Shown here: positions 25,804-46,351 of the stretch, piece after piece | Layout of the letters: every line of letters starts with the position of its first letter | Position numbering within the stretch: the first letter of the stretch is position 1 | Origin: Candidatus Moraniibacteriota bacterium | Lineage (GTDB): Bacteria; Patescibacteriota; Minisyncoccia; Moranbacterales; UBA11712 | DNA: 56,124 bases | Direction of reading: 5' to 3' | Assembly (NCBI GenBank): GCA_028695025.1 | Contig: JAQVJV010000004.1 | Location: 1-56,124, forward strand | Notes under the pieces: generated by a model | What the model saw: the letters and a program-made list of their open reading frames with translations, nothing else | Database searches by the model: none | Told to the model about the DNA's origin: nothing | Position numbers and translations under genes: made by a program

Positions 25804-26739
25804 ATGAAACGAAAACTGGCCATATCCGTCCTCATACTCGCCATTTTGATATCTCTCTATTTCATCCTCTTTCCGCACAAAAGACGCTTCAACCTTCAGC
25901 CTCCTTTTTCCGTTACGCTCACGGATGGCGGAAAATTTTTTCCGGTTTTCACTTCCGCCCAAACCGTTTCCGATTTTTTGGGCGAACAGAAAATATCCAT
26001 CGCTGAAAAAGACTACATTTTCCCCGCGTTGGACGCAAAAATTTTTCCGGGAGAGAATATCTTCATCCGTCGCGCTATTCCCGTGAAAATCGCGGCAGAC
26101 GGAGGTAAAATAGAAGTGGACACCCTGGGAACAACCGTCCGGGACGCCGTCAATGAAGCAAGCATAACCCTGTCCCATGCCGACAAAATAAGTCCGGAAC
26201 TGGACAGTTTGCTCCAGCCGGATTTGGATATCGTCGTCACGAGAATAAATTTCGAAGAGATTTCGGTCGAGGAAGACATCCTCTTTGAAACCGTCGAAAA
26301 AGAAGACAGCGCTGTCATGTGGCGGAAAAGAGAGACCAAGCAGAAAGGGGAAAACGGAACCCGGGAGAAAACGTACAAAATCACCTACACCAACGGCAAA
26401 GAAACCAGCCGCACGCTTCTGGGATCAAAAATAACCAAACAGCCGACCAGCCAAATTGAAGTTGTCGGCACCAAGATCGTCGTTGGAAAAACCCAAACCG
26501 GGGACGCCACCTGGTACGTGAACGGGAGCGACATGACCTGCGCCAGCCTTGATTTTCCTTTCGGGACATATCTTCGCGTGACGAACAAATCCAACGGAAA
26601 ATCGGTGATCGTCCAAGTGAACGACTCCGGCCCGTACGGAAAAGGCCGCGTCATCGACCTCAACAAAAAAGCCTTCCAAAAAATCGCCGGCATCGGAGCG
26701 GGAGTGGTGAAAGTGAAAGTTGAGGAGATACTTAATTGA
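25804..26739 (+). CDS. Cell-wall protein: DUF348-like + G5 + RlpA/3D (double-psi beta-barrel) domain
   Basis: Signal anchor, a G5-like segment (ETKQKGENGTREKTYKITYTNGKE...VVGTK), and a C-terminal GDATWY...VIVQVNDSGPYGKGRVIDL. Confidence 0.85.
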   Translation: MKRKLAISVLILAILISLYFILFPHKRRFNLQPPFSVTLTDGGKFFPVFTSAQTVSDFLGEQKISIAEKDYIFPALDAKIFPGENIFIRRAIPVKIAADGGKIEVDTLGTTVRDAVNEASITLSHADKISPELDSLLQPDLDIVVTRINFEEISVEEDILFETVEKEDSAVMWRKRETKQKGENGTREKTYKITYTNGKETSRTLLGSKITKQPTSQIEVVGTKIVVGKTQTGDATWYVNGSDMTCASLDFPFGTYLRVTNKSNGKSVIVQVNDSGPYGKGRVIDLNKKAFQKIAGIGAGVVKVKVEEILN

Positions 26740-35381: not shown

Positions 35382-35744
35382 ATGAATGGCAAGGGTATAT
35401 TGAAACAAAAAGCTGACAAGCTGGCACATAAAGGATATGATTTGACACAAAAATTTCCCAGGGAAGAATTATACGGATTAATCTCTCAAATACGACGCGC
35501 CCTGTTCTCTGTTCCAGCGAATATAATAGAAGGTTATTCAAAAAACAGAAGCCGCATATTCCTGCATCATCTCGAGATTGCCTATGCATCGCTTGCAGAA
35601 GCAAAATATTTCATGAATTTCGCCTGTAAAAGAAATTATATTTCTAAAGTCGAATACCTGGATTTTTATAAAAACGCCGAAGAAGTAAGCAAGATGCTTT
35701 GGTCAAACATAAATACAATATCCAATAAAATAAATCGAGAATAA
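35382..35744 (+). CDS. Four-helix-bundle protein (23S rRNA intervening-sequence protein family)
   Basis: FPREELYGLISQIRRALFSVPANIIEGYSKNRSRIFLHHLEIAYASLAEAKYF. Confidence 0.85.
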   Translation: MNGKGILKQKADKLAHKGYDLTQKFPREELYGLISQIRRALFSVPANIIEGYSKNRSRIFLHHLEIAYASLAEAKYFMNFACKRNYISKVEYLDFYKNAEEVSKMLWSNINTISNKINRE

Positions 35745-35782
35745 TTTTGATCATTGACCGCTGTTCACTGATCACTGAAAAA
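35745..35782 (+). repeat. GATC-rich repeat word block (right flank of the four-helix-bundle gene)
   Basis: ttttgatcattgaccgctgttcactgatcactgaaaaa. Related blocks occur at 34902..34954 (inverted), 35371..35384, 36196..36213, 36921..36938 and 38745..38822. Confidence 0.8.
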
Positions 35783-36196
35783 ATGTACGCCGGAGTTCCC
35801 CAATTTATCGACATCGAAGACAAAATCGCTTTCGGGCTCACCGGGAAACAGCTTCTGTGGCTCGGCGCGGGAGTGGCTCTTCTTGTGGTGGCCTACACCG
35901 CTTTCGACAGCCAGCTCTTCCTCGTCATCGGACTGTTCATCGCTGTCATTTTTGGCGGATTCGCCTTCTGGCGTCCCCAGGGAGTCCCTCTTGTCACTTT
36001 CGTCGGATACACATTCCAATATTTCGCGAAGCCCCGAAAATATATCTGGAAACGGGTATACCGGGATGACAGCCTGGAACGGAAGAAAGCCGCCCTCGCG
36101 CAATCAAAAAATGCCGCTCCGCCGACGCCCGTGAAACACCTGCCCGCCCGGGGCCAGCTGAAACGGATTGCGTGGGAACTGGACACGAGAAAGTAA
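35783..36196 (+). CDS. PrgI-family (VirB3-like) T4SS membrane protein
   Basis: MYAGVPQFIDIEDKIAFGLTGKQLLWLGAGVALLVV followed by a second TM. ATG at 35783 within the 35747 ORF. Confidence 0.75.
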   Translation: MYAGVPQFIDIEDKIAFGLTGKQLLWLGAGVALLVVAYTAFDSQLFLVIGLFIAVIFGGFAFWRPQGVPLVTFVGYTFQYFAKPRKYIWKRVYRDDSLERKKAALAQSKNAAPPTPVKHLPARGQLKRIAWELDTRK

Positions 36197-36213
36197 CAAC
36201 GATCACTGAAATT

Positions 36214-36909
36214 ATGGAAACATTACATTCCAAAAATTTGACCAAAGACAATTCCGCCGGAAAAGCCGTCCAGTCTTTTGTCGATATCGCCGAAATCAAA
36301 GACGGAGTGGTGATCCTCAAAAACGGGACTTTGCGGGCGGTCCTTATGGTCTCGTCCATCAACTTCGACCTCAAATCCAGCCAGGAGCAGGAAGCAATTG
36401 TCGCCAACTACCAAAGCTTCCTCAATTCAGTCGACTTTCCGATCCAAATTGTCGTTAGTTCCCGAAAAATGGATATCAACCCGTATCTCGAGACATTGAG
36501 CATCAAAGAGAAAGAACAGCCCAACGAGCTTCTCCGTTTCCAGATCGCCGAATACCGGGATTTCGTGAAAAATATGGTCGACGCTTCAAACATAATGGCC
36601 AAATCTTTTTTCATCATCATCCCTTTTGCCCTCACTGAAGCCAAAAAAGAAGGTTTTGTCGACCGGATCCGGGTGGCGCTCAATCCGCAACAGATCATGC
36701 TCGAGAAAAAAATGGAATTTGAGAACTACAAAAGCCAGCTCTGGCAAAGGGTCGACCATGTGATGGCCGGGCTCGGCGGAACCGGGATCCGCATGGCTCC
36801 GCTTTCAACGGAAGAGCTGATCGAATTGTATTATAATTCCTACAACCCGGGAGTGACGGAGAACACGGATATGATAAGCACGGACGAACTCAATATCTCG
36901 GCAGTCTAA
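36214..36909 (+). CDS. virB4: VirB4-class ATPase, N-terminal region encoded as a separate ORF
   Basis: QSFVDIAEIKDGVVILKNGTLRAVLMVSSINFDLKSSQEQEAIVANYQSFLNSVDFPIQIVV matches the characteristic N-terminal block of Gram-positive VirB4 proteins (Tn916 Orf16 / TcpF type). Confidence 0.7.
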   Translation: METLHSKNLTKDNSAGKAVQSFVDIAEIKDGVVILKNGTLRAVLMVSSINFDLKSSQEQEAIVANYQSFLNSVDFPIQIVVSSRKMDINPYLETLSIKEKEQPNELLRFQIAEYRDFVKNMVDASNIMAKSFFIIIPFALTEAKKEGFVDRIRVALNPQQIMLEKKMEFENYKSQLWQRVDHVMAGLGGTGIRMAPLSTEELIELYYNSYNPGVTENTDMISTDELNISAV

Positions 36910-36938
36910 AAAATATTTTGCAACGATCGCTGAATCCT

Positions 36939-38741
36939 ATGTTTAGTTTCACCAAAAAAAAACCAGCCCCAAAATTGTCCAACCAGCCCGACAAAGAAAC
37001 GGAGAAGCTATATCATGAAGGGCTCGCCTCCGTGATTGATCTCATCGCGCCGGCGGCAATCGACGTCACCGCTTCCCATGTCCGCATCGGAGATACTTTT
37101 GCCAAGACCATTTTCACGACCACTTATCCCAAGTTTCTCCAATCGGGATGGTTTTCGCCGATCATAAACCTCGACAAACCGATGGACATCGCCATGTTCA
37201 TCCACCCGATCGATACAAGCGTCATCATGAAAAGTTTGCGCCGGAGCGTCACCCAGGTGGAATCCCAGATCCACCTTGAACAGGAAGCCGGGAAAGTGCG
37301 CGACCCGATCTTGGAATCCGCCCTCCAAAACATCGAGGAATTGCGCGACAAGCTCCAGCAGGGAACCGAGCGTTTTTTCCACTTCGGCCTTTATATGACC
37401 CTCTACGGAAAATCAAAAGAAGACATCGACAAAACCGCCATGTTCATCGAGTCCCTTCTTGAATCGCGCCTGGTTTATGTAAAGGAGGCGATTTTCCGCG
37501 CCGAACAGGGATTCTGCTCCACCTTGCCGCTCGCCAATGACGAGCTCGCTGTTTCCAACAACTTGAACAGCTCGCCGCTCGCCACCACTTTCCCCTTCGT
37601 TTCTTCGGATCTGTCTTCGAATTCCGGGATACTTTACGGCATCAACCTCCACAACAACAGCTTGGTCCTTTTTGACCGTTTCCAAATGGAGAACGCCAAC
37701 ATGGTCATCTTCGCGAAATCAGGCGCCGGGAAAAGCTATGCCGTGAAGCTCGAAATCTTGCACTCGCTCATGATGGGGACGGAAGTGATCGTCCTTGATC
37801 CGGAAAATGAGTATCAATATTTATGCGAAGCTGTCGGCGGGAGCTTCATCAATATTTCGCTCAACTCGGACTATCATCTCAACCCTTTCGACCTTCCCAA
37901 TATTCCCGAGGACGAAGATCCGCGCGACGTCCTCCGCAACAACATCGCGAACCTCATCGGGCTCCTCCACATCATGCTCGGAAACATCACGCCGGAAGAA
38001 GATTCGATCCTTGACCGCGCCATCACGGAAACATATGAGATAAAAGACATCACTCCGGAAAGCAACTTGCGCGCTTTCACCCGCGAGCAGTTTCCTACCA
38101 TGTCGGACCTTTACAACGTCCTCCAAAGCATGGAAGGGGCGGAAGATCTGGCCGTCCGTCTTGAAAAATACACAACGGGAATTTTTTCCGGATTCCTCAA
38201 CAACTTGTCCAACGTGAACCTTTCCAACCACATGGTGGTTTTCAACTTGCGCGATATGCAGGAAGAGTTGCGGCCGATCGCCATGTACGTGGTCCTCCAT
38301 TTCATCTGGAACGAGATCCGCTCGCGCATGAAGAAGCGCATGATTGTCGTGGACGAAGCTTGGGTGATGATGCAGTACGAAGACGCCGGATCATTCATGT
38401 TCGGGATCGCCAAGCGCTGCCGGAAATACTTCGCCGGACTCACCACCATCACGCAGGATATCGGTGACTTCCTGGCTTCGAAATACGGGAAGCCGATCGT
38501 CACCAACTCTTCCATCCAACTGCTCTTGAAACAGTCTCCGGCCGCCATCGACACCATCGGCGACACTTTTTTCCTCACCGACCAGGAACGCTTCATGCTT
38601 CTTGAAGCCAATGTGGGGGAGGGAATTTTCTTTGCCGGAACGAAACACGTCGCCATCCAGGTCGTTGCATCGCGCTCCGAAGACCAGCTTGTTACCTCAA
38701 ACCCCGCCCAGCTTCTCGAGCGGGAAGAAAACAAAGACTAG
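36939..38741 (+). CDS. virB4: VirB4-class T4SS ATPase, middle and C-terminal ATPase region
   Basis: IAPAAIDVTASHVRIGDTFAKTIFTTTYP, Walker A FAKSGAGKSYAVK, Walker B MIVVDEAW, TTITQD. A TTG at 36918 is an alternative start. Confidence 0.88.
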   Translation: MFSFTKKKPAPKLSNQPDKETEKLYHEGLASVIDLIAPAAIDVTASHVRIGDTFAKTIFTTTYPKFLQSGWFSPIINLDKPMDIAMFIHPIDTSVIMKSLRRSVTQVESQIHLEQEAGKVRDPILESALQNIEELRDKLQQGTERFFHFGLYMTLYGKSKEDIDKTAMFIESLLESRLVYVKEAIFRAEQGFCSTLPLANDELAVSNNLNSSPLATTFPFVSSDLSSNSGILYGINLHNNSLVLFDRFQMENANMVIFAKSGAGKSYAVKLEILHSLMMGTEVIVLDPENEYQYLCEAVGGSFINISLNSDYHLNPFDLPNIPEDEDPRDVLRNNIANLIGLLHIMLGNITPEEDSILDRAITETYEIKDITPESNLRAFTREQFPTMSDLYNVLQSMEGAEDLAVRLEKYTTGIFSGFLNNLSNVNLSNHMVVFNLRDMQEELRPIAMYVVLHFIWNEIRSRMKKRMIVVDEAWVMMQYEDAGSFMFGIAKRCRKYFAGLTTITQDIGDFLASKYGKPIVTNSSIQLLLKQSPAAIDTIGDTFFLTDQERFMLLEANVGEGIFFAGTKHVAIQVVASRSEDQLVTSNPAQLLEREENKD

Positions 38742-39565: not shown

Positions 39566-40237
39566 ATGGCCCTCAAATACATAGACACAAGAAAAAAAAC
39601 TTGGAAAAACCGCCGTGAGTGGCTGATCGGATTTTCAGCGCTTCTCATCTTTCTCGTGAGTTTTTTCTTCCCGCAAAAATTATTCGGCGATCCTTTCTGG
39701 CTTTCATTTTTTTTGTACGCGTCTTTTCCGGTTGCTATCATGATCTTCGTCCTGAAAGAACCTTTGCAAAACTTCGGTTTTGGAGCGGGGAAAAAGTTTT
39801 GGGGGATCGCGCTTGGCATCATTTTCACCATCGCTTTCGTTGCCGGGCACTATTTTCTCGTCTTCCATTCTCCTTGGGCCGGACAAATTCCCGTCGCGCG
39901 CGTCCTTGTTTCCGGGTTTTTAAACTTCTTGCTGTATGAGATATTTTTTTCACTGCCTTTCCAATTTTTTTCCGAAGTTTTTTTTCGGGGATTCCTGCAA
40001 TTGGGGCTTGAGAAAAAGCTGGGGATTTTTTCATTGCTTCTCGCCGCGCTTTTGCAGACTGTTCCGTACGCGCGGACGAATTGGGCCGTCCTGGCGCTTG
40101 TCGGTTGCTCATCCCTTGCCGCCGGAATCATCGTCCGCCAGGGCCGGTCGATATATTACAGCGCCATCGCCATGTGGATAATTTCCGCCAGTTTGGATAT
40201 AATGATCATAAAAGTAATCAACCAAAGCAGATTTTAG
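39566..40237 (+). CDS. CPBP-family (CAAX-like) intramembrane protease homolog, motifs partly degenerate
   Basis: 6-7 TM helices. FSEVFFRGFLQ resembles the EExxxR motif with only one Glu. The downstream His motifs are not obvious. Confidence 0.5.
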   Translation: MALKYIDTRKKTWKNRREWLIGFSALLIFLVSFFFPQKLFGDPFWLSFFLYASFPVAIMIFVLKEPLQNFGFGAGKKFWGIALGIIFTIAFVAGHYFLVFHSPWAGQIPVARVLVSGFLNFLLYEIFFSLPFQFFSEVFFRGFLQLGLEKKLGIFSLLLAALLQTVPYARTNWAVLALVGCSSLAAGIIVRQGRSIYYSAIAMWIISASLDIMIIKVINQSRF

Positions 40238-40240
40238 GCT

Positions 40241-43180
40241 ATGCGCAAAAACGAAACAAAAATATTTTCTGTCGCAGTTATAATCGGACTTTTTATAAAC
40301 CTTTCTTTTCCGGCAATCACCTTGGCTTATTCTTTCAGCGTTCCCTACGGGGCTCTCACTATCGACAGCTCCCAAATGGTTTCCATGGCCAATGAGCTTA
40401 TGCAAAACACGGAAAGCCGCTACGGATTCACTTCCGACATCCTTCGCACTGCCGACCGGAAATATTCCGCCCCCGTGGCCGAACTTTCCTTTGACAATAC
40501 CAATCCGAAACCGGGGGAGAAAGTCACCGCCTATGCCCTCCCGGAATTTTTCAAAAACGATCCACAAAACCTTTATTATACCTGGTATATCATCCATACC
40601 AAAAACGGAAAACCCGAAACCGCCACCAACACCATCCGGGAAGGAAAGATTGAAGCCGCCAAAATAATGGCTCATGGTGACTATGATCCGGAACTCGACG
40701 GCCAGGATTATGCCGGCCAGGACAAAGACCCGGACAACGACGGTTGGCCGGACGTCGATTCGAACAGCTATGATGCCGACAAAGACCAGGCTCCGATGGG
40801 GGGATCGGACGGAAAAGGCGGACTCACTGAAGACAGCGACAATTTCGATGCCAGCCTCTCGGAATATTGCGGATCCGAACCGGCACCGTCAAGCTGCAAC
40901 CTCTATACGGAAAAGAGCGCTTTTGAATCGTATTATCAATTGCAAAGCTCCCAAAACAATTCCTATTGCTCGTCATGCGCCGCTGATACCCTGTCCTGGG
41001 GAACCCTTTCTTCCGACAACCAATGCTGCTATCTGGTGCTGAACCCGACCGACACGGGTTATTCCGGATACGACAGCGGAACAGATTATTGCCCGTCCAG
41101 TTACAACCAAAATTATGAAAGTTGTTTTGGTTATACTGCTCTTCAATCAACCAATGAATCCGTCATCCAATCTTGCCTCGATACCTACTATTCCGTTTGC
41201 TCCACTGAATACGATTCGCTTCATACCAGCACAAATTTCTCCACGGGCTCGAATGATACCGACTATTCCCGCTGTTTCCGGCACAGTTTCGGCGTGAGCA
41301 ACGACGCTTATGGATTTCAAGGGTATAGCGGATCGTCCAACAGCTATGACAACGACACCTCCGGATTGGATTATAACATCGCCTGCAAACACAAATGGGT
41401 AAACGCCAAAGGATATACCAGCGGATCGGGAAAATTCACCACCGGCGAGGAGGAATATTGGAAAACCGACCCGACTGATCCCGATACGGACGGCGACGGT
41501 TTTTCGGACGGCGCCGATGTGATCGGACTCGGCCAGCAGGATTTTACCTGGACATACCGGTCCGGCGACCGGGTAGGGGTCGTCATTGAAGGCACCTCCA
41601 TGCTTCCCACCGACGAAGAAAACGCTTACTACAAAATAATGTGGGGATACCTTGGCGTTTGCGATTCGACCAAGGCGGGGCTCATGAGCAACGATGAGTG
41701 CGACAGTTCCGACGACTACGGCTTCGGGTACCTTGCCACCCAAGCGCCCGGCGAAGAAGGGGACGCAAAACTCCAACTATCGCTCGCTTATAGTCCGGAT
41801 GATCCTATTGCCGATCCGTCAAACGCCAACGCGGACAATATTTCAGGGGACGGAAGCATTTCCAACGCGGATAAAATCACCGTGAACTCGTCGCTTGATA
41901 ACACCGACCTCGATCCGGGAAATCTCTATTATGCTTGGTATATCCAAAAAGGAGATCTGGAAGACGAAGACAGTTGGAAAAAAATGGATATCGCCGACAA
42001 TTTTGACACAGATACCGTTTCAAGCGGCTTGGGCCTTTCCAGTTTTTCTTTCACCCCCAAAACTTCAGCTATGTCAGGAAACGACGACCTGCAGTATTTC
42101 AAAGTGACGGTTACCGCCTCGCGCTCATCCGGGACCGCTTCGAAACGCGGAAGAGCAAGCGTTGTCATTCCCGTAAACAAAAAAGGGATCCGCCTCCAAT
42201 TCTTCCAGGTCGATACGGCAAGCGGAAAAGCAACTCTCGGAAAAGAGGTTTGCAATGGCGCCACCTATTGCCCCGTAGTTAAAAATCAATTGCTAGCCGC
42301 CAAAGTTTCCTCGAGCGGTTATGATGTTTCCGGAAGCGAATTTTCTTGGAACATTAATGGGACAGATTATCCCACCCCATCCGATCCGTCCGACCTGTTT
42401 TCCGGATGGGATGATGCAACCACTTTTTTTGGAATTGTTGAAAATGCCGGAGAGACCCTTGACATAACCGTGAAAGCCACTCCGAAAGACGCGCTTGAGC
42501 CGGTGGCTGGCACGCGGCAACTCATCGTAGTTGATCCATCGGCATACATATTCTCAACAAACCCAAACAGCCGTCCGACCACTTATTCCGTCGATGACGA
42601 GAATACCCGGGACCTTTCTTACGAATTGTCGAGCAGTCATGTTTTTGAAGCCGATACGGGAAGCGACGTCGCTTATACTGTCGGCCTTTCTCCGGATTAT
42701 CTTTTTAGCGGGAGCGAAAACGCTGAAATTGACTGGAAAATCAACGGCACGAGCATCGCTGATTCGGATTTTGATCCGGAAACTTTCGGCATATCCGATG
42801 TAGCAACCGATGATAGCGGGAAAACTCTCGCGTTCAAAACCGGGGACGCCGAAGGCGCCAGCTATACCATTGAAGCCGACGTGAAGCGGTATTGGAGCGC
42901 GGACGAAAAAAATATTCTGGGCACGGCTTGGGATATCACGCCCTCCACACTGCTTGCAAGCTCGAGCATTGACATCACCACCGTCGCCGCTCCGCTTGAC
43001 GCCGAAGATGCGACGTCGCTCGGCCATCCGGGACAGATCCTGGCGGCCATCAGCACCCATCTGCCGCATTATTTCATGTATCTTTTGCGCCTTGTCATCA
43101 CTGTCTCCGTGATGTTCATAATGAGCGCCGGTTTTTACGGGCTTAGCCAAAGCTTAGGTTTCAAAAACGATGAAGACTGA
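40241..43180 (+). CDS. Large (979 aa) secreted surface protein with Ca-binding Asp-rich repeats and a C-terminal TM anchor
   Basis: Signal peptide. DKDPDNDGWPDVDSNSYDADKDQ and DPTDPDTDGDGFSDGADV. Duplicated NLYY[TA]WYI motif. C-terminal helix LLRLVITVSVMFIMSAGFYGL. Confidence 0.8.
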   Translation: MRKNETKIFSVAVIIGLFINLSFPAITLAYSFSVPYGALTIDSSQMVSMANELMQNTESRYGFTSDILRTADRKYSAPVAELSFDNTNPKPGEKVTAYALPEFFKNDPQNLYYTWYIIHTKNGKPETATNTIREGKIEAAKIMAHGDYDPELDGQDYAGQDKDPDNDGWPDVDSNSYDADKDQAPMGGSDGKGGLTEDSDNFDASLSEYCGSEPAPSSCNLYTEKSAFESYYQLQSSQNNSYCSSCAADTLSWGTLSSDNQCCYLVLNPTDTGYSGYDSGTDYCPSSYNQNYESCFGYTALQSTNESVIQSCLDTYYSVCSTEYDSLHTSTNFSTGSNDTDYSRCFRHSFGVSNDAYGFQGYSGSSNSYDNDTSGLDYNIACKHKWVNAKGYTSGSGKFTTGEEEYWKTDPTDPDTDGDGFSDGADVIGLGQQDFTWTYRSGDRVGVVIEGTSMLPTDEENAYYKIMWGYLGVCDSTKAGLMSNDECDSSDDYGFGYLATQAPGEEGDAKLQLSLAYSPDDPIADPSNANADNISGDGSISNADKITVNSSLDNTDLDPGNLYYAWYIQKGDLEDEDSWKKMDIADNFDTDTVSSGLGLSSFSFTPKTSAMSGNDDLQYFKVTVTASRSSGTASKRGRASVVIPVNKKGIRLQFFQVDTASGKATLGKEVCNGATYCPVVKNQLLAAKVSSSGYDVSGSEFSWNINGTDYPTPSDPSDLFSGWDDATTFFGIVENAGETLDITVKATPKDALEPVAGTRQLIVVDPSAYIFSTNPNSRPTTYSVDDENTRDLSYELSSSHVFEADTGSDVAYTVGLSPDYLFSGSENAEIDWKINGTSIADSDFDPETFGISDVATDDSGKTLAFKTGDAEGASYTIEADVKRYWSADEKNILGTAWDITPSTLLASSSIDITTVAAPLDAEDATSLGHPGQILAAISTHLPHYFMYLLRLVITVSVMFIMSAGFYGLSQSLGFKNDED

Positions 43181-43583
43181 AGATAGAAAAAAAGCCATCA
43201 GTTTTTTAAAAATTGCTATTTTTGCTTTTTGTTTTTTGCTTCTATTCATTCTTTCGAATAAAACCCTGGCCGACACTGACAGTTATAAAAACCAAGAAAA
43301 AATTCCGGGAGCAAGCCAGACTACCGGTAATTTCATCCAGTATATGCAAGACGTGATCACGTTCGGATATAACATCATCGGGATCCTCGCCATCTTCATG
43401 CTTCTCATCGGCGCCTATCAATATCTCATCGGCTCAACCACGGGAAATGTTTCGGGAGCGAAAGAAACCATTGTTTCCGCCCTCATCGGCCTTATCCTCG
43501 GCCTTTGCGCCTATATCATACTGAATAAGATCAATCCGGATTTGGTAAGTTTCCGGAGCATCACGCAAATAACCGGCAAATAA
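43170..43583 (+). CDS. TrbC/VirB2-like T4SS pilin
   Basis: 137 aa. Signal peptide ending TLADTDSY, then two hydrophobic helices (IIGILAIFMLLIGAYQYL; ALIGLILGLCAYIIL). Confidence 0.7.
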   Translation: MKTEDRKKAISFLKIAIFAFCFLLLFILSNKTLADTDSYKNQEKIPGASQTTGNFIQYMQDVITFGYNIIGILAIFMLLIGAYQYLIGSTTGNVSGAKETIVSALIGLILGLCAYIILNKINPDLVSFRSITQITGK

Positions 43584-43604
43584 GAAAATCAAAATATTTT
43601 TCAA

Positions 43605-44510
43605 ATGAAATACAAAAAGAAAATTTCCGTTTTTTTTCTGGCTGTAATTTTTTTCACAGCTTTTTTTTCATTTTTTCATCCGGTTCTCGCTGATTCAAGC
43701 AGTTATAAAAACCAGGAAAAAATTCCGGGATCGGAGCAAACCGGCGATTTTATCCAATACATGAAAGACATAATCAATTTCGGGTACGCGATAATCGGAA
43801 TTCTCGCCCTCTTCATGCTCATCATCGCCGCGTACCAATACCTCATCGGATCGACCACGGGAAATGTTTCCGGCGCCAAGGAGACGGTAGGATCGGCGAT
43901 TTTGGGGCTTGTCCTCGGCCTTTGCGCCTATATTATCCTCAACACCATCAATCCGGATCTCGTGAGTTTCCGCAGCATCACCCAGATCAAAGGCGTCGAC
44001 CAGCCAATCACCGTTTATCCAAATACCACAGGCGTATCTGAAATTTATGGAGCCAAGACTGCTGTCAGTCCCGCTCCAACTACTGCGGCGAGAGTTTTAC
44101 AATACTTGCCACTAGCCCAGGCCGCTCATGAAAAAAATCCGATTGTGCCAGTCTCCCTAATATTGGCAATGATTGATCAAGAAAGCCAAGGGAATCCCAA
44201 TGCTGTCAGCCCTAAGGGAGCTGTCGGCCTGATGCAAATAATGCCTAAATATTGGGCGGCTGATTATGGCGTTACTACCGAACAACTCAAAGATCCAGAA
44301 ACAAGCATTACGGTTGGAACAAATATTATAGCTAATCTTATAAACAAGTATAACGGCAATATAAACTTAGCCCTTGCCGCCTATAACGCTGGGACAGGAA
44401 ATGTAGATAAGTATGGAGGAATCCCTCCTCTTAAAGAAACACAAGAGTATGTTCCTAAGGTTACTGCAAAAGAAGCTTATTATGCGCAAAAAATAAGCGC
44501 AAGCCAGTAA
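43605..44510 (+). CDS. VirB2-like pilin paralog fused to a C-terminal soluble lytic transglycosylase (VirB1-like) domain
   Basis: The N-terminal 130 aa parallels the previous ORF (DSSSYKNQEKIPG, LIGSTTGNVSGAKET, LGLCAYIILN, INPDLVSFRSITQI). SLT motifs IDQESQGNPNAVSPKGAVGLMQIMP and AAYNAG. Confidence 0.8.
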   Translation: MKYKKKISVFFLAVIFFTAFFSFFHPVLADSSSYKNQEKIPGSEQTGDFIQYMKDIINFGYAIIGILALFMLIIAAYQYLIGSTTGNVSGAKETVGSAILGLVLGLCAYIILNTINPDLVSFRSITQIKGVDQPITVYPNTTGVSEIYGAKTAVSPAPTTAARVLQYLPLAQAAHEKNPIVPVSLILAMIDQESQGNPNAVSPKGAVGLMQIMPKYWAADYGVTTEQLKDPETSITVGTNIIANLINKYNGNINLALAAYNAGTGNVDKYGGIPPLKETQEYVPKVTAKEAYYAQKISASQ

Positions 44511-44549
44511 TTTTTTTTAAAACTTTTGTTATCTTGCTATAATACCCGC

Positions 44550-45149
44550 ATGAACACCCCCTCAAAAAATATCTACCTCGTCGCGTTCGTCTTCATCGTC
44601 GCCATTGCCATCGTGGCTTGGCTTTATGTTGTCAATAAAAACAATCCGATCCAAACATCCCTCTTGAATCCAAGCGGAGAATCCGCCACGGATACCGTTC
44701 CCGGCCAACTTCCCTCCGCCCAGCCCGCCCGGAACCAAAACGCCGACACGGTCCAGGAACTGCCGGAACCCCCTTCGATCCCGGGACAAAAAATCGACGC
44801 GCCCGAAATCTCCGAAAAATACGGGCAATACGCTTTCGAAACCTTTGAAAAAGATTCGGACCTTGTTGGAAAAATAAAAAGCGTCTATCCCGCTTTCAAA
44901 ACCGAACTGATGTATGTTTCATTCCCGTCCCAGGCCTACAAAATGGATGACGGAAAAGAATATCTCGCCCTTGGCGGATGCACCGAACATGACTGCGGAG
45001 GAACCGGAATGGTCGCGCTCTACAACCTCACCGACGACAAGACATATCTTGCCAAAGAAAGCACATCCCAGATCGGCTTCGAAAAATATTACGGCAACCC
45101 CAGCGAAGACGAGGAAAACATAATGCTTAATTATTATCTGTCCAAATAA
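44550..45149 (+). CDS. Membrane-anchored Ivy-like (inhibitor of vertebrate lysozyme family) protein
   Basis: EYLALGGCTEHDCGGTGMVALY parallels the E. coli Ivy loop YQVMSACKPHDCGSQRIAVMW. TGcTATAAT sits 6 nt upstream of the ATG at 44550. Confidence 0.55.
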   Translation: MNTPSKNIYLVAFVFIVAIAIVAWLYVVNKNNPIQTSLLNPSGESATDTVPGQLPSAQPARNQNADTVQELPEPPSIPGQKIDAPEISEKYGQYAFETFEKDSDLVGKIKSVYPAFKTELMYVSFPSQAYKMDDGKEYLALGGCTEHDCGGTGMVALYNLTDDKTYLAKESTSQIGFEKYYGNPSEDEENIMLNYYLSK

Positions 45150-45154
45150 ACCTC

Positions 45155-46351
45155 ATGCCTAAAAAGATTTTTGCCATTTCCACCCTTGTTTTGATGCTCA
45201 CCATCGCCATTATTTTTGCCTATAACTACGCTTTCAAAAAAACGGATTCTTCGGCGTCATCCCAAACCGCCGCCAAATCAACCGCAGAGGGAAAAACCGA
45301 AAACGCTTCAAGCGCTTCAGAAAATACGGCTCCGGCCAATTCTGTTTCCGCTGAAGCTACGGCGAGCAAGCAAACAATTTCCGCGGTTTCCGACCAACCG
45401 GCCTTTGGCGCCGTTCTCGCGCCGGACAACGCCTCGATCTACTATTTTTCCGCCGATAACGGCCAGCTCAACCAGATGGATTTCAACGGCAAGCTGGAGA
45501 AAGTCGTCTCCACGGAAGGCTTCAAGGATATCCAAAAAGTAGCTTGGAACAAATCAAGGAACACAGCCATCATCAAGCGCGCCGACGGAAAAAGCGGGTC
45601 AAAATTCCTCATCCTTGACCTCGCGGAGAAAAAAGTTTCAGCGCTCAAAAACAGCGTTGACAGCGCGGCCTGGTCGAACTTGGGAGACAAAATTATCTAC
45701 AAATATTACGACTCAAAAACCGGGAAGCGGACCGTGAATGTTTCCGACCCGGACGGAGGCAATTGGCGGAAAGTCGCCGACACAAGTTTCGTCGATCTGG
45801 AAATCGCCGCCGTTCCGGGGCTCGCCGCTATTTCTTTCTGGCCGATGCCAGATGCCTATACCGCTACTTCCGTGGACTTGGTGAATTTCAGCGGAGAAAA
45901 CGATAAGGAAATCTTGAAAGGCCGCTACGGCGCCGACCTTCTCTGGTCGCCGGACGGAAAATCAGCGGCTGTGAGCTACACTGACCAGAAAGGCGGAAAA
46001 AAAACAGACCTCGCCATCATGAATTCCGACGGCGGGCAATTCCACTCCCTCAATTTTCCCACTTTCACCAAAAAATGCGCTTGGTCATCCGATTCAAAAC
46101 ATCTCTTCTGCGCCATGCCGGGAAATATTTCCGAAAATTCGACCCTTCCCGACGACTGGCAGGAAGGAAAATTCCAAACCGCCGACACTTTTTGGAAAAT
46201 TGAAGTGGCCACCGGAAAAAAAGACCGCCTTGTTGAAGTGGAAAAAATCGACGATTCCTACGACGTCCTCAATCCTTTTCTTTCCGCCGATGAAAAAACC
46301 TTGTTTTTTATAAACAAGGCCGACGGAAAGCTGTATAAGTTAAGCTTTTAG
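45155..46351 (+). CDS. Membrane-anchored TolB-like beta-propeller protein
   Basis: N-terminal TM. Repeated WSPDGK / SDSKHLFC / SADEKTLFF-type PD40-like blades. Confidence 0.7.
   Translation: MPKKIFAISTLVLMLTIAIIFAYNYAFKKTDSSASSQTAAKSTAEGKTENASSASENTAPANSVSAEATASKQTISAVSDQPAFGAVLAPDNASIYYFSADNGQLNQMDFNGKLEKVVSTEGFKDIQKVAWNKSRNTAIIKRADGKSGSKFLILDLAEKKVSALKNSVDSAAWSNLGDKIIYKYYDSKTGKRTVNVSDPDGGNWRKVADTSFVDLEIAAVPGLAAISFWPMPDAYTATSVDLVNFSGENDKEILKGRYGADLLWSPDGKSAAVSYTDQKGGKKTDLAIMNSDGGQFHSLNFPTFTKKCAWSSDSKHLFCAMPGNISENSTLPDDWQEGKFQTADTFWKIEVATGKKDRLVEVEKIDDSYDVLNPFLSADEKTLFFINKADGKLYKLSF

What the first reader, a model, noticed from the sequence alone, without database searches (positions are those of the whole stretch)
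43170..44510. Tandem pilin paralogs, the second fused to a lytic transglycosylase
The two adjacent ORFs share long identical peptide stretches (SYKNQEKIPG, LIGSTTGNVSGAKET, LGLCAYIILN, INPDLVSFRSITQI). Their DNA is visibly parallel over about 300 bp (43278..43578 vs 43699..43997). The second copy continues into an SLT domain (ESQGNPNAVSPKGAVGLMQIMP, AYNAG). A VirB2-like pilin covalently joined to a VirB1-like wall-cutting enzyme is an unusual architecture. It would tether muralytic activity to the pilus/channel subunit itself, or be cleaved (a CPBP-like protease is encoded 3.4 kb upstream).
Basis: partly seen in the sequence, partly recalled or inferred. Interest (0 to 1): 0.62.

Follow-up and report, generated by a model that had tools for sequence, protein, structure and literature searches.

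The report
Pilin-anchored wall-cutting enzyme with Ivy inhibitor
In the secretion-system gene cluster of an ultra-small Moranbacteria (CPR) bacterium, a pilin-like membrane protein sits next to a copy of itself that carries a cell-wall-cutting enzyme, and the next gene encodes a likely inhibitor of that enzyme; the fusion is real and recurs in relatives, but I found no paper that describes it.

Summary
ORF A (43170-43583, 137 aa) and ORF B (43605-44510, 301 aa) share 79% identity over 107 residues. A is a Pfam T4SS_pilin (PF18895). B has the same hairpin, a disordered linker of about 30 residues, and a high-confidence SLT lytic transglycosylase with its catalytic Glu-Ser intact.

The fusion is not an assembly artefact. 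Dozens of database proteins from independent assemblies share the architecture. It sits at the same position in the dnaA-proximal Patescibacteria type IV secretion locus of several Candidatus Moranbacteria genomes.

- **Ivy partner.** The next gene (44550-45149) is a membrane-anchored Ivy-family lysozyme/transglycosylase inhibitor. It directly follows the pilin-SLT gene in 10 of 16 loci.
- **Domain swapping.** Sister species carry the same pilin module with a different lysozyme-like domain (SLT_3, or a weak GH73-like match). The SLT_3 type is followed by its own partner family.

The most likely function is a VirB1 equivalent tethered outside the membrane by a VirB2-like anchor and held in check by the Ivy-like protein. 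A host-directed, pilus-displayed enzyme with an immunity protein is not excluded.

Verdict: a new variant of a known kind, of moderate interest.

The parts
43170..43583 (+). Free VirB2-like pilin (137 aa): signal peptide ending ...KTLA|D, conserved mature N-terminus YKNQEKIPG, and a two-helix membrane hairpin. Its start overlaps the stop of the 979-aa gene by 11 nt.
   Evidence: Pfam PF18895 at 35 bits (cut-off 26.6); TrbC PF04956 weak at 17.5 bits. 79% identical to ORF B.
43605..44510 (+). Pilin-SLT fusion (301 aa). It is the only PF01464 match in the 984-kb genome.
   Evidence: AF2 mean pLDDT 82.4. Full-length homologues with PF18895+PF01464.
43605..43691 (+). Signal peptide of the fusion (aa 1-29, ...HPVLA|D). 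The Ala at -1 is nearly invariant in 40 homologues.
   Evidence: Alignment A3; AF2 helix 2-22. The cleavage site is inferred, not predicted with a dedicated tool.
43692..43982 (+). Pilin-like domain of the fusion (aa 30-126): YKNQEKIPG motif and helices 49-85 and 89-115.
   Evidence: PF18895 at 21.7 bits by hmmscan and 26.3 bits (26.6 with its neighbours in the frame) in the genome search. AF2 pLDDT about 82. dN/dS 0.09 against ORF A.
43983..44075 (+). Flexible linker (aa 127-157).
   Evidence: AF2 pLDDT below 50 for residues 127-147. Length and sequence vary among homologues.
44076..44507 (+). SLT (family-1, GH23-type) lytic transglycosylase domain. Catalytic Glu193-Ser194 are at 44181-44186; GLMQ and AYNAG motifs are present.
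   Evidence: PF01464 at 100.8 bits. pLDDT about 95. Foldseek top hits are Slt70, P. aeruginosa Slt, MltC, MltE, MltD and LtgA. E193, S194, G208 and Q211 are invariant in 40 fusions.
44516..44543 (+). Promoter-like site (TTTAAA, 16 nt, TG-TATAAT) ending 6 nt before the ATG of the Ivy-like gene. This could give it separate, leaderless expression.
   Evidence: Consensus scan only; not evidence of function.
44550..45149 (+). Membrane-anchored Ivy-family inhibitor homologue (199 aa from ATG 44550; the ORF listing starts it at TTG 44526). It has an N-terminal TM helix, a disordered Pro/Ser-rich linker and an Ivy domain with a C-T-E-H-D-C loop at 44979-44996.
   Evidence: Pfam Ivy PF08816 at 22.1 bits (cut-off 21). 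Profile A2 hits the Ivy structures 4PS6 and 1UUZ at E = 2e-4, with the loop aligned on CKPHDC. AF2 plus Foldseek: top six hits are all Ivy, TMt 0.54-0.64. NCBI names the G002 orthologue 'Ivy family c-type lysozyme inhibitor'.
40241..43180 (+). 979-aa surface protein with a C-terminal TM helix, encoded just upstream of the pilin genes. It is syntenic in relatives.
   Evidence: No Pfam hit.
39566..40237 (+). CPBP/Rce1-like polytopic membrane protein (borderline match).
   Evidence: PF02517 at 22.1 bits against a cut-off of 22.4. The same gene is seen in a relative's locus.
35747..38741 (+). T4SS core genes: PrgI/VirB3-like (35747-36196), a 245-aa ORF (36172-36909) and a VirB4-like ATPase (36918-38741).
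   Evidence: PF12666, PF19044 and PF03135. Relatives show the same order, with a separate TraC-like gene before VirB4.
45155..46351 (+). TM-anchored beta-propeller-like protein (PD40/Tricorn-like), the last gene of the co-directional block. It is syntenic in all relatives examined.

Best explanation
This is the cell-wall-opening component of the chromosomal, dnaA-proximal type IV secretion system of a Candidatus Moranbacteria (Patescibacteria) bacterium. It is built in an unusual way.

ORF A is a free VirB2-like pilin. ORF B is its paralogue: the same signal peptide and two-helix hairpin, then a disordered linker of about 30 residues, then an intact family-1 lytic transglycosylase.

Inferred mechanism:
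- Both proteins are inserted by Sec and the signal peptide is cut after Ala.
- The hairpin then has both ends outside the membrane. The SLT domain therefore hangs on the outer face of the membrane, under the peptidoglycan of this single-membrane cell.
- The pilin-like anchor places the enzyme among the free pilin subunits at the T4SS assembly site. There it cuts glycan strands locally, so that the pilus or channel and the giant surface protein can pass the wall. This is the VirB1 role.
- The next gene encodes an Ivy-family inhibitor tethered to the same face of the membrane by its own TM helix and linker. It keeps the only SLT enzyme of the cell from causing autolysis.

Shown: the domain identities, conservation, synteny and co-occurrence. 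Inferred: topology, co-assembly, the target wall and inhibition.
For: - **Domains.** PF18895 in A; SLT at 100.8 bits in B. AF2 shows a signal helix, a hairpin (pLDDT about 82), a disordered linker and an SLT domain (pLDDT about 95). Foldseek top hits are all family-1 lytic transglycosylases. Glu193-Ser194 are invariant in 40 fusions.
- **Context.** PrgI/VirB3-like and VirB4-like genes lie upstream, with dnaA and dnaN downstream. This matches the published Patescibacteria T4SS locus (PMC12102498).
- **Recurrence.** Many proteins carry PF18895+PF01464. The order surface protein, (free pilin), pilin-SLT, beta-propeller recurs in G001, G003, G011, G014, G017, L009, L036, L037, L043, L044, L045 and the P0002 and P0021 loci.
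- **Constraint on the anchor.** dN/dS is 0.09 between the two copies. The fused copy has the shorter branch in the pilin tree: 0.057 against 0.14.
- **Only SLT.** ORF B is the single PF01464 match in the genome.
- **Ivy partner.** Pfam, PDB-profile and fold evidence agree. The gene lies directly downstream of the pilin-SLT gene in 10 of 16 loci. Its presence clusters on the SLT tree: 2 changes against 6-7 in shuffles. Within the 19-genome family, 7 of 10 genomes with the SLT fusion have Ivy, against 1 of 9 without. My own Fisher arithmetic gives p of about 0.02, not corrected for phylogeny.
- **Precedent.** Ivy proteins inhibit the lytic transglycosylase MltB in vitro (Clarke et al. 2010, as cited in PMC10139938). 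VirB1 homologues of Gram-positive systems are membrane-anchored enzymes outside the membrane (PMC12857230).
Against: - No experiment exists for any protein of this family, and no pilus has been seen.
- ORF B alone scores below the PF18895 gathering cut-off by hmmscan (21.7 against 26.6). Both ORFs are below cut-off for TrbC/VirB2.
- A profile of these pilins finds no solved VirB2 or TraA structure by sequence.
- Six of 16 pilin-SLT loci have no Ivy-like gene (L009, L037, L045, G007, G016, G004), so the inhibitor is not obligatory.
- E. coli Ivy is only a weak lytic-transglycosylase inhibitor in vitro and has no in vivo effect (PMC10139938).
- The catalytic domain is swapped between species of one genus. 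That fits a fast-evolving host-interaction factor better than a housekeeping assembly factor.
- Charged residues around the hairpin do not by themselves fix the topology.
Confidence: 0.6

Rival explanations
1. Host-directed weapon. The fusion is a minor pilin that is built into, or at the tip of, the T4SS filament made of the free pilin. It displays the transglycosylase outside the cell to breach the wall of the host bacterium on which the epibiont lives. The Ivy-like protein is an immunity protein against self and kin. The locus then behaves like a polymorphic effector-immunity system.
For: - Within one genus (g10), the same pilin module at the same position carries SLT (G017, G016), SLT_3 (G013, G009) or a weak GH73-like domain (G018).
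- The pilin-domain tree does not sort by C-terminal domain type.
- The downstream small gene co-varies with the domain. SLT is followed by Ivy-like. SLT_3 is followed by a different family whose members match each other at E = 1e-17 to 1e-81 and are unrelated to Ivy.
- G002 keeps an 'orphan' Ivy-like gene behind an SLT_3 fusion and that fusion's own partner.
- A promoter-like site lies just before the Ivy-like gene.
- The Patescibacteria T4SS is essential for epibiotic growth and lacks a relaxase (PMC10633639; PMC12102498).
- From my own knowledge: in F-type pili both pilin termini face the outside of the filament, so a C-terminal domain could be displayed.
Against: - A 170-residue domain on every subunit would clash in a VirB2-type helical filament, so incorporation would have to be sparse. 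That is untested.
- Six of 16 loci have no immunity-like gene.
- All the alternative domains are wall glycosidases, which an assembly role also needs.
- There is no evidence that any of these proteins leaves the producer's membrane.
Confidence: 0.22
2. Precursor that is cleaved. The fusion is processed in the disordered linker, by the CPBP-like protease of the locus or another peptidase. This yields an ordinary pilin plus a soluble, VirB1*-like transglycosylase.
For: - The linker at residues 127-147 is disordered and variable.
- A CPBP/Rce1-like gene is conserved in the locus.
- From my own knowledge: Agrobacterium VirB1 is processed to VirB1*.
Against: - The CPBP hit is below the Pfam cut-off (22.1 against 22.4).
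- No conserved cleavage motif is visible in the linker across 40 homologues.
- A free pilin gene already exists next door in many genomes.
- This reading is compatible with the main explanation rather than opposed to it.
Confidence: 0.12
3. Housekeeping autolysin. The protein is simply the cell's general lytic transglycosylase for growth and division. The pilin-like hairpin is only a membrane anchor, and the position next to T4SS genes is incidental.
For: - It is the only PF01464 match in a 984-kb genome.
- Ivy-type control of housekeeping lytic transglycosylases has been proposed for Gram-negative bacteria.
Against: - The gene sits strictly inside the T4SS block in every relative examined.
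- Sister species replace SLT with other domains or lack it, so SLT chemistry is not indispensable.
- The anchor is a close paralogue (79%) of the adjacent pilin and is under strong purifying selection.
Confidence: 0.05
4. Assembly or sequencing artefact, or a pseudogene made by loss of a stop codon.
For: None was found.
Against: - At least 40 full-length homologues from independent NCBI, JGI, ENA and Logan assemblies have the same architecture and invariant catalytic residues.
- Synteny is conserved.
- The AF2 model is confident.
Confidence: 0.01

Closest known systems
Patescibacteria-clade type IV secretion system with VirB2-like pilins (Quinonero-Coronel et al. 2025, PMC12102498; Wang et al. 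2023, PMC10633639)
   Same: The locus is chromosomal and next to dnaA/dnaN. It has PrgI/VirB3-like and MPF-FATA-like VirB4 genes, PF18895 pilins near virB4, tandem pilin paralogs, and no relaxase in view.
   Different: The paper reports pilin arrays with at most 54% identity within an array and says most genomes with VirB2 lack VirB1. It does not mention a pilin-enzyme fusion; 'fusion' and 'fused' occur only for VirB3-VirB4. Here the two pilin domains are 79% identical, and the VirB1-type domain is part of one of them.
Membrane-anchored VirB1-like hydrolases of Gram-positive T4SSs: TraG of pIP501 (SLT+CHAP) and PrgK of pCF10 (LytM+muramidase+CHAP)
   Same: These are wall-cutting enzymes of a single-membrane T4SS. 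They are held at the outer face of the membrane by an N-terminal membrane segment, and their glycosidase chemistry varies (SLT or muramidase) (PMC12857230).
   Different: Their anchor is a plain TM segment, not a VirB2-like hairpin paralogous to a neighbouring pilin. They carry a CHAP or LytM domain, which is absent here. No dedicated Ivy-type inhibitor gene is described for them; PrgK is described as self-regulating (title of Sun et al. 2024, cited in PMC12102498).
Ivy family (E. coli Ivy, P. aeruginosa Ivyp1/Ivyp2) as inhibitors of lysozyme and of the lytic transglycosylase MltB
   Same: Same fold (Foldseek top hits). The disulfide-bounded C-x-x-H-x-C loop aligns with CKPHDC. Both lie in the same compartment as a lytic transglycosylase.
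   Different: Classical Ivy is a soluble periplasmic protein of Gram-negative bacteria and is not encoded next to its proposed target. Here it is TM-anchored in a single-membrane CPR bacterium and is encoded 40 bp after an SLT gene in 10 loci. Sequence similarity is low (14-18% in the structural alignments).
Pfam architecture T4SS_pilin (PF18895) + SLT_3 (PF18896) in uncharacterised Patescibacteria proteins
   Same: The same N-terminal module is joined to a lysozyme-superfamily domain. It is found here in sister species at the same position.
   Different: The window's protein carries the classical SLT PF01464 domain and pairs with Ivy. The SLT_3 type pairs with another small protein family.
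Polymorphic effector-immunity loci, for example the peptidoglycan-hydrolase effectors and immunity proteins of the Xanthomonas bacteria-killing T4SS (from my own knowledge)
   Same: A conserved N-terminal module carries interchangeable C-terminal wall-degrading domains. The downstream small gene co-varies with the domain, and there is one orphan partner gene.
   Different: No secretion signal of the Xanthomonas type is present. The N-terminal module is an integral membrane hairpin. Killing has not been shown, and a third of the loci lack a partner gene.

Membership tests
Pfam T4SS_pilin (PF18895), the VirB2-like pilins of Patescibacteria | Score at or above the Pfam gathering cut-off (26.6 bits) | tested here: met
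   ORF A scores 35.0 bits. ORF B scores 21.7 bits by hmmscan and 26.3 bits (26.6 with its neighbours in the frame) in the genome search. B is 79% identical to A. All 11 related pilins match.
Pfam T4SS_pilin (PF18895), the VirB2-like pilins of Patescibacteria | Signal peptide followed by a two-helix hydrophobic hairpin | tested here: met
   AF2 helices 2-22, 49-85 and 89-115. Ala at -1 is nearly invariant.
Pfam T4SS_pilin (PF18895), the VirB2-like pilins of Patescibacteria | Encoded near virB4 in a T4SS locus | tested here: met
   The VirB4-like gene at 36918-38741 lies 4.4 kb upstream on the same strand. Relatives show the same.
Pfam T4SS_pilin (PF18895), the VirB2-like pilins of Patescibacteria | Polymerises into a pilus | not testable with these tools
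   No structural or microscopy data exist for this family. The literature calls a pilus a possibility (PMC12857230).
TrbC/VirB2 (PF04956) | Score at or above the gathering cut-off (27.9 bits) | tested here: not met
   17.5 bits (A) and 20.7 bits (B). Seven of 11 related pilins give sub-threshold hits, best E = 1.8e-6. No PDB VirB2 or TraA hit by profile. I therefore call it VirB2-like and do not file it as a member.
SLT / family-1 lytic transglycosylase (PF01464, GH23) | Profile match above cut-off and the lysozyme-like fold | tested here: met
   100.8 bits against a cut-off of 21.3. Foldseek hits to Slt70, Slt, MltC, MltE and MltD with probability 1.00.
SLT / family-1 lytic transglycosylase (PF01464, GH23) | Catalytic Glu in the E-S motif, plus GLMQ and AYNxG motifs | tested here: met
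   E193-S194, G208-L-M-Q211 and AYNAG are present. E193, S194, G208 and Q211 are invariant in 40 fusions.
SLT / family-1 lytic transglycosylase (PF01464, GH23) | Forms 1,6-anhydro-MurNAc products | not testable with these tools
   This needs an enzyme assay.
VirB1-type T4SS wall hydrolase | [quoted passage not shown] | tested here: met
VirB1-type T4SS wall hydrolase | Match to CONJScan VirB1/TrsG/CD419 profiles; needed for T4SS biogenesis | not tested
The requirement for biogenesis is an experiment.
Ivy (PF08816), for the downstream gene | Profile match above cut-off (21 bits) | tested here: met
   22.1 bits for the window protein and 25.4 bits for the L036 orthologue. Five of 7 orthologues match. 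The profile hits PDB Ivy at E = 2e-4. The margin is small.
Ivy (PF08816), for the downstream gene | Disulfide-bounded inhibitory loop C-K-P-H-D-C with a central His | tested here: met
   The loop is CTEHDC. Both Cys are invariant and the His is present in 90% or more of the 10 aligned sequences (Arg in G003). It aligns with CKPHDC of 1UUZ and 4PS6.
Ivy (PF08816), for the downstream gene | Ivy fold | tested here: met
   The AF2 domain has pLDDT about 90-96. Foldseek ranks 1-6 and 8 are Ivy structures, TMt 0.46-0.64, best E = 0.011. The E-values are modest.
Ivy (PF08816), for the downstream gene | Binds and inhibits a lysozyme or lytic transglycosylase | not testable with these tools
   This needs binding and inhibition assays. 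Complex prediction was not possible with the single-chain tool.
Polymorphic effector-immunity system | Conserved N-terminal module with interchangeable C-terminal domains, and a co-varying gene immediately downstream | tested here: inconclusive
   Domain swapping within genus g10 and two distinct enzyme-partner pairs were seen. However, 6 of 16 SLT loci have no partner gene. The sample is small and phylogenetically related.
Polymorphic effector-immunity system | Toxicity to a target cell that the partner neutralises | not testable with these tools
   This is an experiment.

The most novel reading that the evidence does not exclude
The VirB2-like hairpin of Moranbacteria may be a carrier that mounts interchangeable wall-degrading 'heads' (SLT, SLT_3, GH73-like) on a pilus built by a single-membrane T4SS. 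The epibiont would use these heads to open the host bacterium's peptidoglycan. Each head would come with its own membrane-tethered immunity protein, Ivy-like for SLT. That would make this a polymorphic effector-immunity system delivered on a pilus, and it would give the Ivy family a primary role in bacterial lytic-transglycosylase immunity rather than defence against animal lysozyme.
Probability: 0.2. Interest if true: 0.85.

Novelty: new variant of a known kind. Interest (0 to 1): 0.5.

Why it matters
**The wall-crossing problem.** The Patescibacteria T4SS is essential for epibiotic growth in the one genetically tractable species. It is the only T4SS of a single-membrane bacterium with VirB2-like pilins. 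How such a structure crosses a wall, and what it does to the host, is open (PMC12857230, PMC10633639). A wall-cutting enzyme built onto a pilin paralogue is a concrete, testable candidate for the wall-crossing step. It also explains why surveys find 'no VirB1' next to many of these pilins: the VirB1-type domain can be part of a pilin gene.

**The Ivy question.** The physiological target of Ivy-family inhibitors has long been puzzling. They sit in the periplasm, away from animal lysozyme, and in vivo evidence for lytic-transglycosylase control is lacking (PMC10139938). Here an Ivy homologue is encoded right after an SLT gene in ten loci. Several close relatives come from aquifer, groundwater or lake metagenomes, judging by their record names. 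That is genomic evidence for an enzyme-inhibitor pair, and two small recombinant domains would be enough to test it.

Tried and rejected
- **Sequence link to solved VirB2/TraA pilins.** A profile of 11 pilins against PDB gave only spurious TM-helix hits.
- **Recent duplication or recent gene conversion.** Rejected as the cause of the 79% identity. Synonymous sites are near saturation (pS 0.65, dS about 1.5), so the identical peptides are held by selection. The copies still cluster by genome in three lineages. I cannot say whether this reflects old conversions, independent duplications or co-evolution of interacting helices.
- **Identity of the third C-terminal domain type (G018, G004, L036).** Only a sub-threshold Glucosaminidase hit (21.2 bits against 30.2) and nothing in PDB.
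- **C-terminal domain of the 335-aa pilin fusion on contig C9.** No Pfam or PDB match.
- **Ivy-like genes next to SLT in other phyla.** The two Verrucomicrobia loci found (L034, L035) have no adjacent SLT or pilin.
- **Pilin-SLT outside the Moranbacteria order.** In 251 genomes of the class, the listed matches (listing truncated) cover almost only the pilin part. A few separate SLT-only matches appear, and no clear single hit spans both parts.
- **Literature searches for a described pilin-transglycosylase fusion.** These returned nothing.

Full report
**1. The observation.** ORF A (43170-43583, 137 aa) and ORF B (43605-44510, 301 aa) lie 21 nt apart on the + strand.
- BLASTP aligns residues 30-136 of A with residues 25-130 of B at 79% identity, E = 1e-59.
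- The DNA is parallel over the mature domain: 82% mean column identity and 75% over the 102 aligned codons.
- The signal peptides have diverged to 38% aa identity.
- The C-terminal half of B matches Pfam SLT at 100.8 bits.

**2. What the parts are.**
- A scores 35 bits on Pfam T4SS_pilin PF18895 (cut-off 26.6). B scores 21.7 bits by hmmscan and 26.3 bits in the genome search. Both give only sub-threshold hits to TrbC/VirB2.
- An AlphaFold2 model of B, built on 40 full-length homologues, has mean pLDDT 82. It shows a signal helix (2-22), a helical hairpin (49-85, 89-115), a disordered linker (127-147, pLDDT below 50) and a compact domain (158-300, pLDDT about 95).
- The nearest solved structures to that domain are Slt70, P. 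aeruginosa Slt, MltC, MltE, MltD and LtgA.
- Glu193-Ser194, Gly208 and Gln211 are invariant in the 40 fusions.
- A cleaved signal peptide followed by two membrane passes puts both ends of the mature protein outside the membrane. The enzyme would then face the peptidoglycan. This topology is inferred, not measured.

**3. Context and organism.**
- The genes sit in a co-directional block: PrgI/VirB3-like, VirB4-like ATPase, a borderline CPBP-like membrane protein, a 979-aa surface protein, the two pilin genes, a 199-aa gene and a TM-anchored beta-propeller-like protein. A glycan module and then rnpA/yidC-type genes and dnaA/dnaN follow.
- The genome is 984 kb. Its nearest relatives are named Candidatus Moranbacteria or Moraniibacteriota.
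- This is the chromosomal, dnaA-proximal, relaxase-less T4SS described for Patescibacteria (PMC12102498). In Ca. S. epibionticum that system is essential for epibiotic growth (PMC10633639; PMC12857230).

**4. The fusion is real and recurrent.**
- A search of 5.8 billion proteins returned dozens of proteins of 275-385 aa that carry PF18895 and PF01464 together. They come from NCBI, JGI, ENA and Logan assemblies.
- In the 19 species genomes of the same family, 10 carry a pilin-SLT gene.
- Wherever the contig allows, the gene follows the giant surface-protein gene.
- The free pilin directly precedes the fusion in the window, G001, G011, G014, G017, L036 and the P0002 locus. It is absent at that spot in G003, G007, L009, L043 and L045.
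- B is the only PF01464 match in the window's genome.
An artefact is nevertheless excluded for practical purposes.

**5. History of the two copies.**
- In a tree of 22 pilin domains, the free and fused copies of one genome cluster together in the window (support 100/99), G017 (98/96) and L036 (92/92). In genus g2 they form two separate orthologous clades.
- Between the window's copies, synonymous sites are almost saturated (pS 0.65, dS about 1.5). dN is 0.14 and dN/dS is 0.09.
- The similarity is therefore old and maintained by selection, not a recent duplication. The stretch LIGSTTGNVSGAKET is specific to this lineage yet identical in both copies, while its codons differ at many synonymous positions.
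- The fused copy has the shorter branch (0.057 against 0.14), so its hairpin is not a decaying anchor.
- I cannot separate old gene conversion, independent duplications and co-evolution of subunits that must fit each other.

**6. The next gene is an Ivy homologue.**
- The ORF after B most likely starts at ATG 44550, because that Met is invariant in orthologues. It hits Pfam Ivy just above the cut-off (22.1 bits against 21).
- A profile of seven orthologues finds the P. aeruginosa Ivy structures at E = 2e-4. The CTEHDCGG stretch aligns with Ivy's inhibitory loop CKPHDCG.
- Both Cys residues are invariant and the His is nearly so.
- The AF2 model shows an N-terminal TM helix, a disordered linker and a domain whose six best PDB matches are all Ivy.
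- NCBI already names one orthologue 'Ivy family c-type lysozyme inhibitor'.
- The gene lies directly downstream of the pilin-SLT gene in 10 loci and is missing in 6.
- Its presence is clustered on the SLT-domain tree: 2 changes against 6-7 in shuffles.
- In the family, 7 of 10 genomes with the SLT fusion have it, against 1 of 9 without. My own Fisher arithmetic gives p of about 0.02, uncorrected for relatedness.
- Ivy proteins inhibit the lytic transglycosylase MltB in vitro, but an in vivo link has been lacking (PMC10139938).

**7. The enzyme head is interchangeable.**
- At the same position in sister species, the same pilin module carries either a Cys-rich SLT_3 (PF18896) lysozyme-like domain (G013, G009, G002) or a domain with weak Glucosaminidase similarity (G018, G004, L036).
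- All three head types occur within one genus (g10). The pilin tree does not sort by head type.
- The SLT_3 type is followed by its own small TM-anchored protein family, which is unrelated to Ivy.
- G002 has an SLT_3 fusion, that partner, and then an Ivy-like gene with no SLT.
- Across 251 genomes of the class, the pilin domain is found in 179 genomes. It often lies in open frames of 300-580 aa.

**8. Mechanism.** My best explanation (0.6) has four parts.
- B is the VirB1 equivalent of this T4SS.
- It is tethered on the outer face of the membrane by a VirB2-like anchor, which places it among the free pilins at the assembly site.
- It cuts the producer's wall locally so that the apparatus can pass.
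- The membrane-tethered Ivy homologue restrains it.

The main rival (0.22) is that the fusion is a minor pilin displayed on the filament to open the host's wall, with Ivy as immunity. Head swapping, co-varying partner genes and the orphan Ivy favour this reading. Steric limits on a 170-residue head and the loci without a partner count against it. Cleavage in the linker (0.12) is compatible with either reading. A pure housekeeping role (0.05) fits poorly with the strict T4SS synteny and with head replacement.

**9. Comparison with what is known.**
- The locus is a member of the published Patescibacteria T4SS.
- The enzyme works like the membrane-anchored VirB1 homologues of Gram-positive systems (TraG of pIP501, PrgK of pCF10). 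It differs in its anchor, in lacking CHAP or LytM domains, and in having a separate Ivy-type partner.
- I do not file the pilin domain under TrbC/VirB2 PF04956, because that cut-off is not met.
- Pfam holds the sibling families PF18895 and PF18896, and PGAP annotates these proteins generically.
- The papers I could search do not mention a pilin-enzyme fusion.
- Earlier notes of this scan report the same theme in other Patescibacteria genomes. They are leads that agree with this report, not independent evidence.

**10. Verdict.** It is a new variant of a known kind. What this window adds is a close free paralogue next to the fusion, the syntenic Ivy-family partner, and the co-variation of enzyme head and partner gene. 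Interest is moderate (0.5). It would be high if the pilus-displayed effector-immunity reading proved true.

Noticed in passing
own genome contig C9:3478-7288 (loci L001-L006): A second pilin cluster holds six PF18895 domains. It includes a 222-aa ORF with two pilin domains in tandem, three pilins of about 120 aa, and a 335-aa pilin with a Cys-rich C-terminal domain that has no Pfam or PDB match. That last gene is followed by a 267-aa TM-anchored protein.
   Followed up: partly
window 35382-35744 (+): A 120-aa '23S rRNA intervening sequence protein' / bAvd-like four-helix-bundle gene (PF05635, 103 bits) is inserted between T4SS genes. Relatives such as L009 have no gene there. No reverse transcriptase was seen nearby.
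   Followed up: no
window 36172-36909 and 36918-38741 (+): The VirB4 region is two ORFs: 245 aa, then a 607-aa P-loop protein. The relative L009 has the same two-gene layout (a 217-aa TraC-like PF26593 gene, then a 602-aa gene). This looks like a conserved split rather than a frameshift.
   Followed up: partly
window 25804-26739 (+): A DUF348-G5-DPBB_1 (RlpA/YabE-like 'lytic transglycolase' fold) protein. It is a second potential wall-cleaving enzyme of this genome, outside the T4SS block.
   Followed up: no
L028 (G002:C28) 23-1815: An SLT_3-type pilin fusion is followed by its own 180-aa partner and then by an Ivy-like gene with no SLT gene present. This is an 'orphan' inhibitor arrangement.
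   Followed up: partly
proteins P0144, P0145: Metagenomic proteins of 309-377 aa match the Ivy-like profile and carry Pfam PF07007 (DUF1311/YecT). From my own knowledge, that family includes the lysozyme inhibitor LprI, so these may be double-inhibitor fusions.
   Followed up: no
L034 and L035 (Verrucomicrobia MAG contigs): TM-anchored Ivy-like proteins with the same GC-x-x-H-x-CGGT loop occur in Verrucomicrobia, without an adjacent SLT or pilin gene.
   Followed up: partly
window 44516-44543 (+): An extended -10 promoter-like site ends 6 nt before the ATG of the Ivy-like gene. This would give a leaderless transcript independent of the pilin operon. It is a consensus match only.
   Followed up: no
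L015 (G009:C2) about 2030-2095: A run of masked or unknown bases (translated as X) interrupts the second pilin gene of this relative. Its apparent two overlapping ORFs are therefore an assembly gap, not biology.
   Followed up: no
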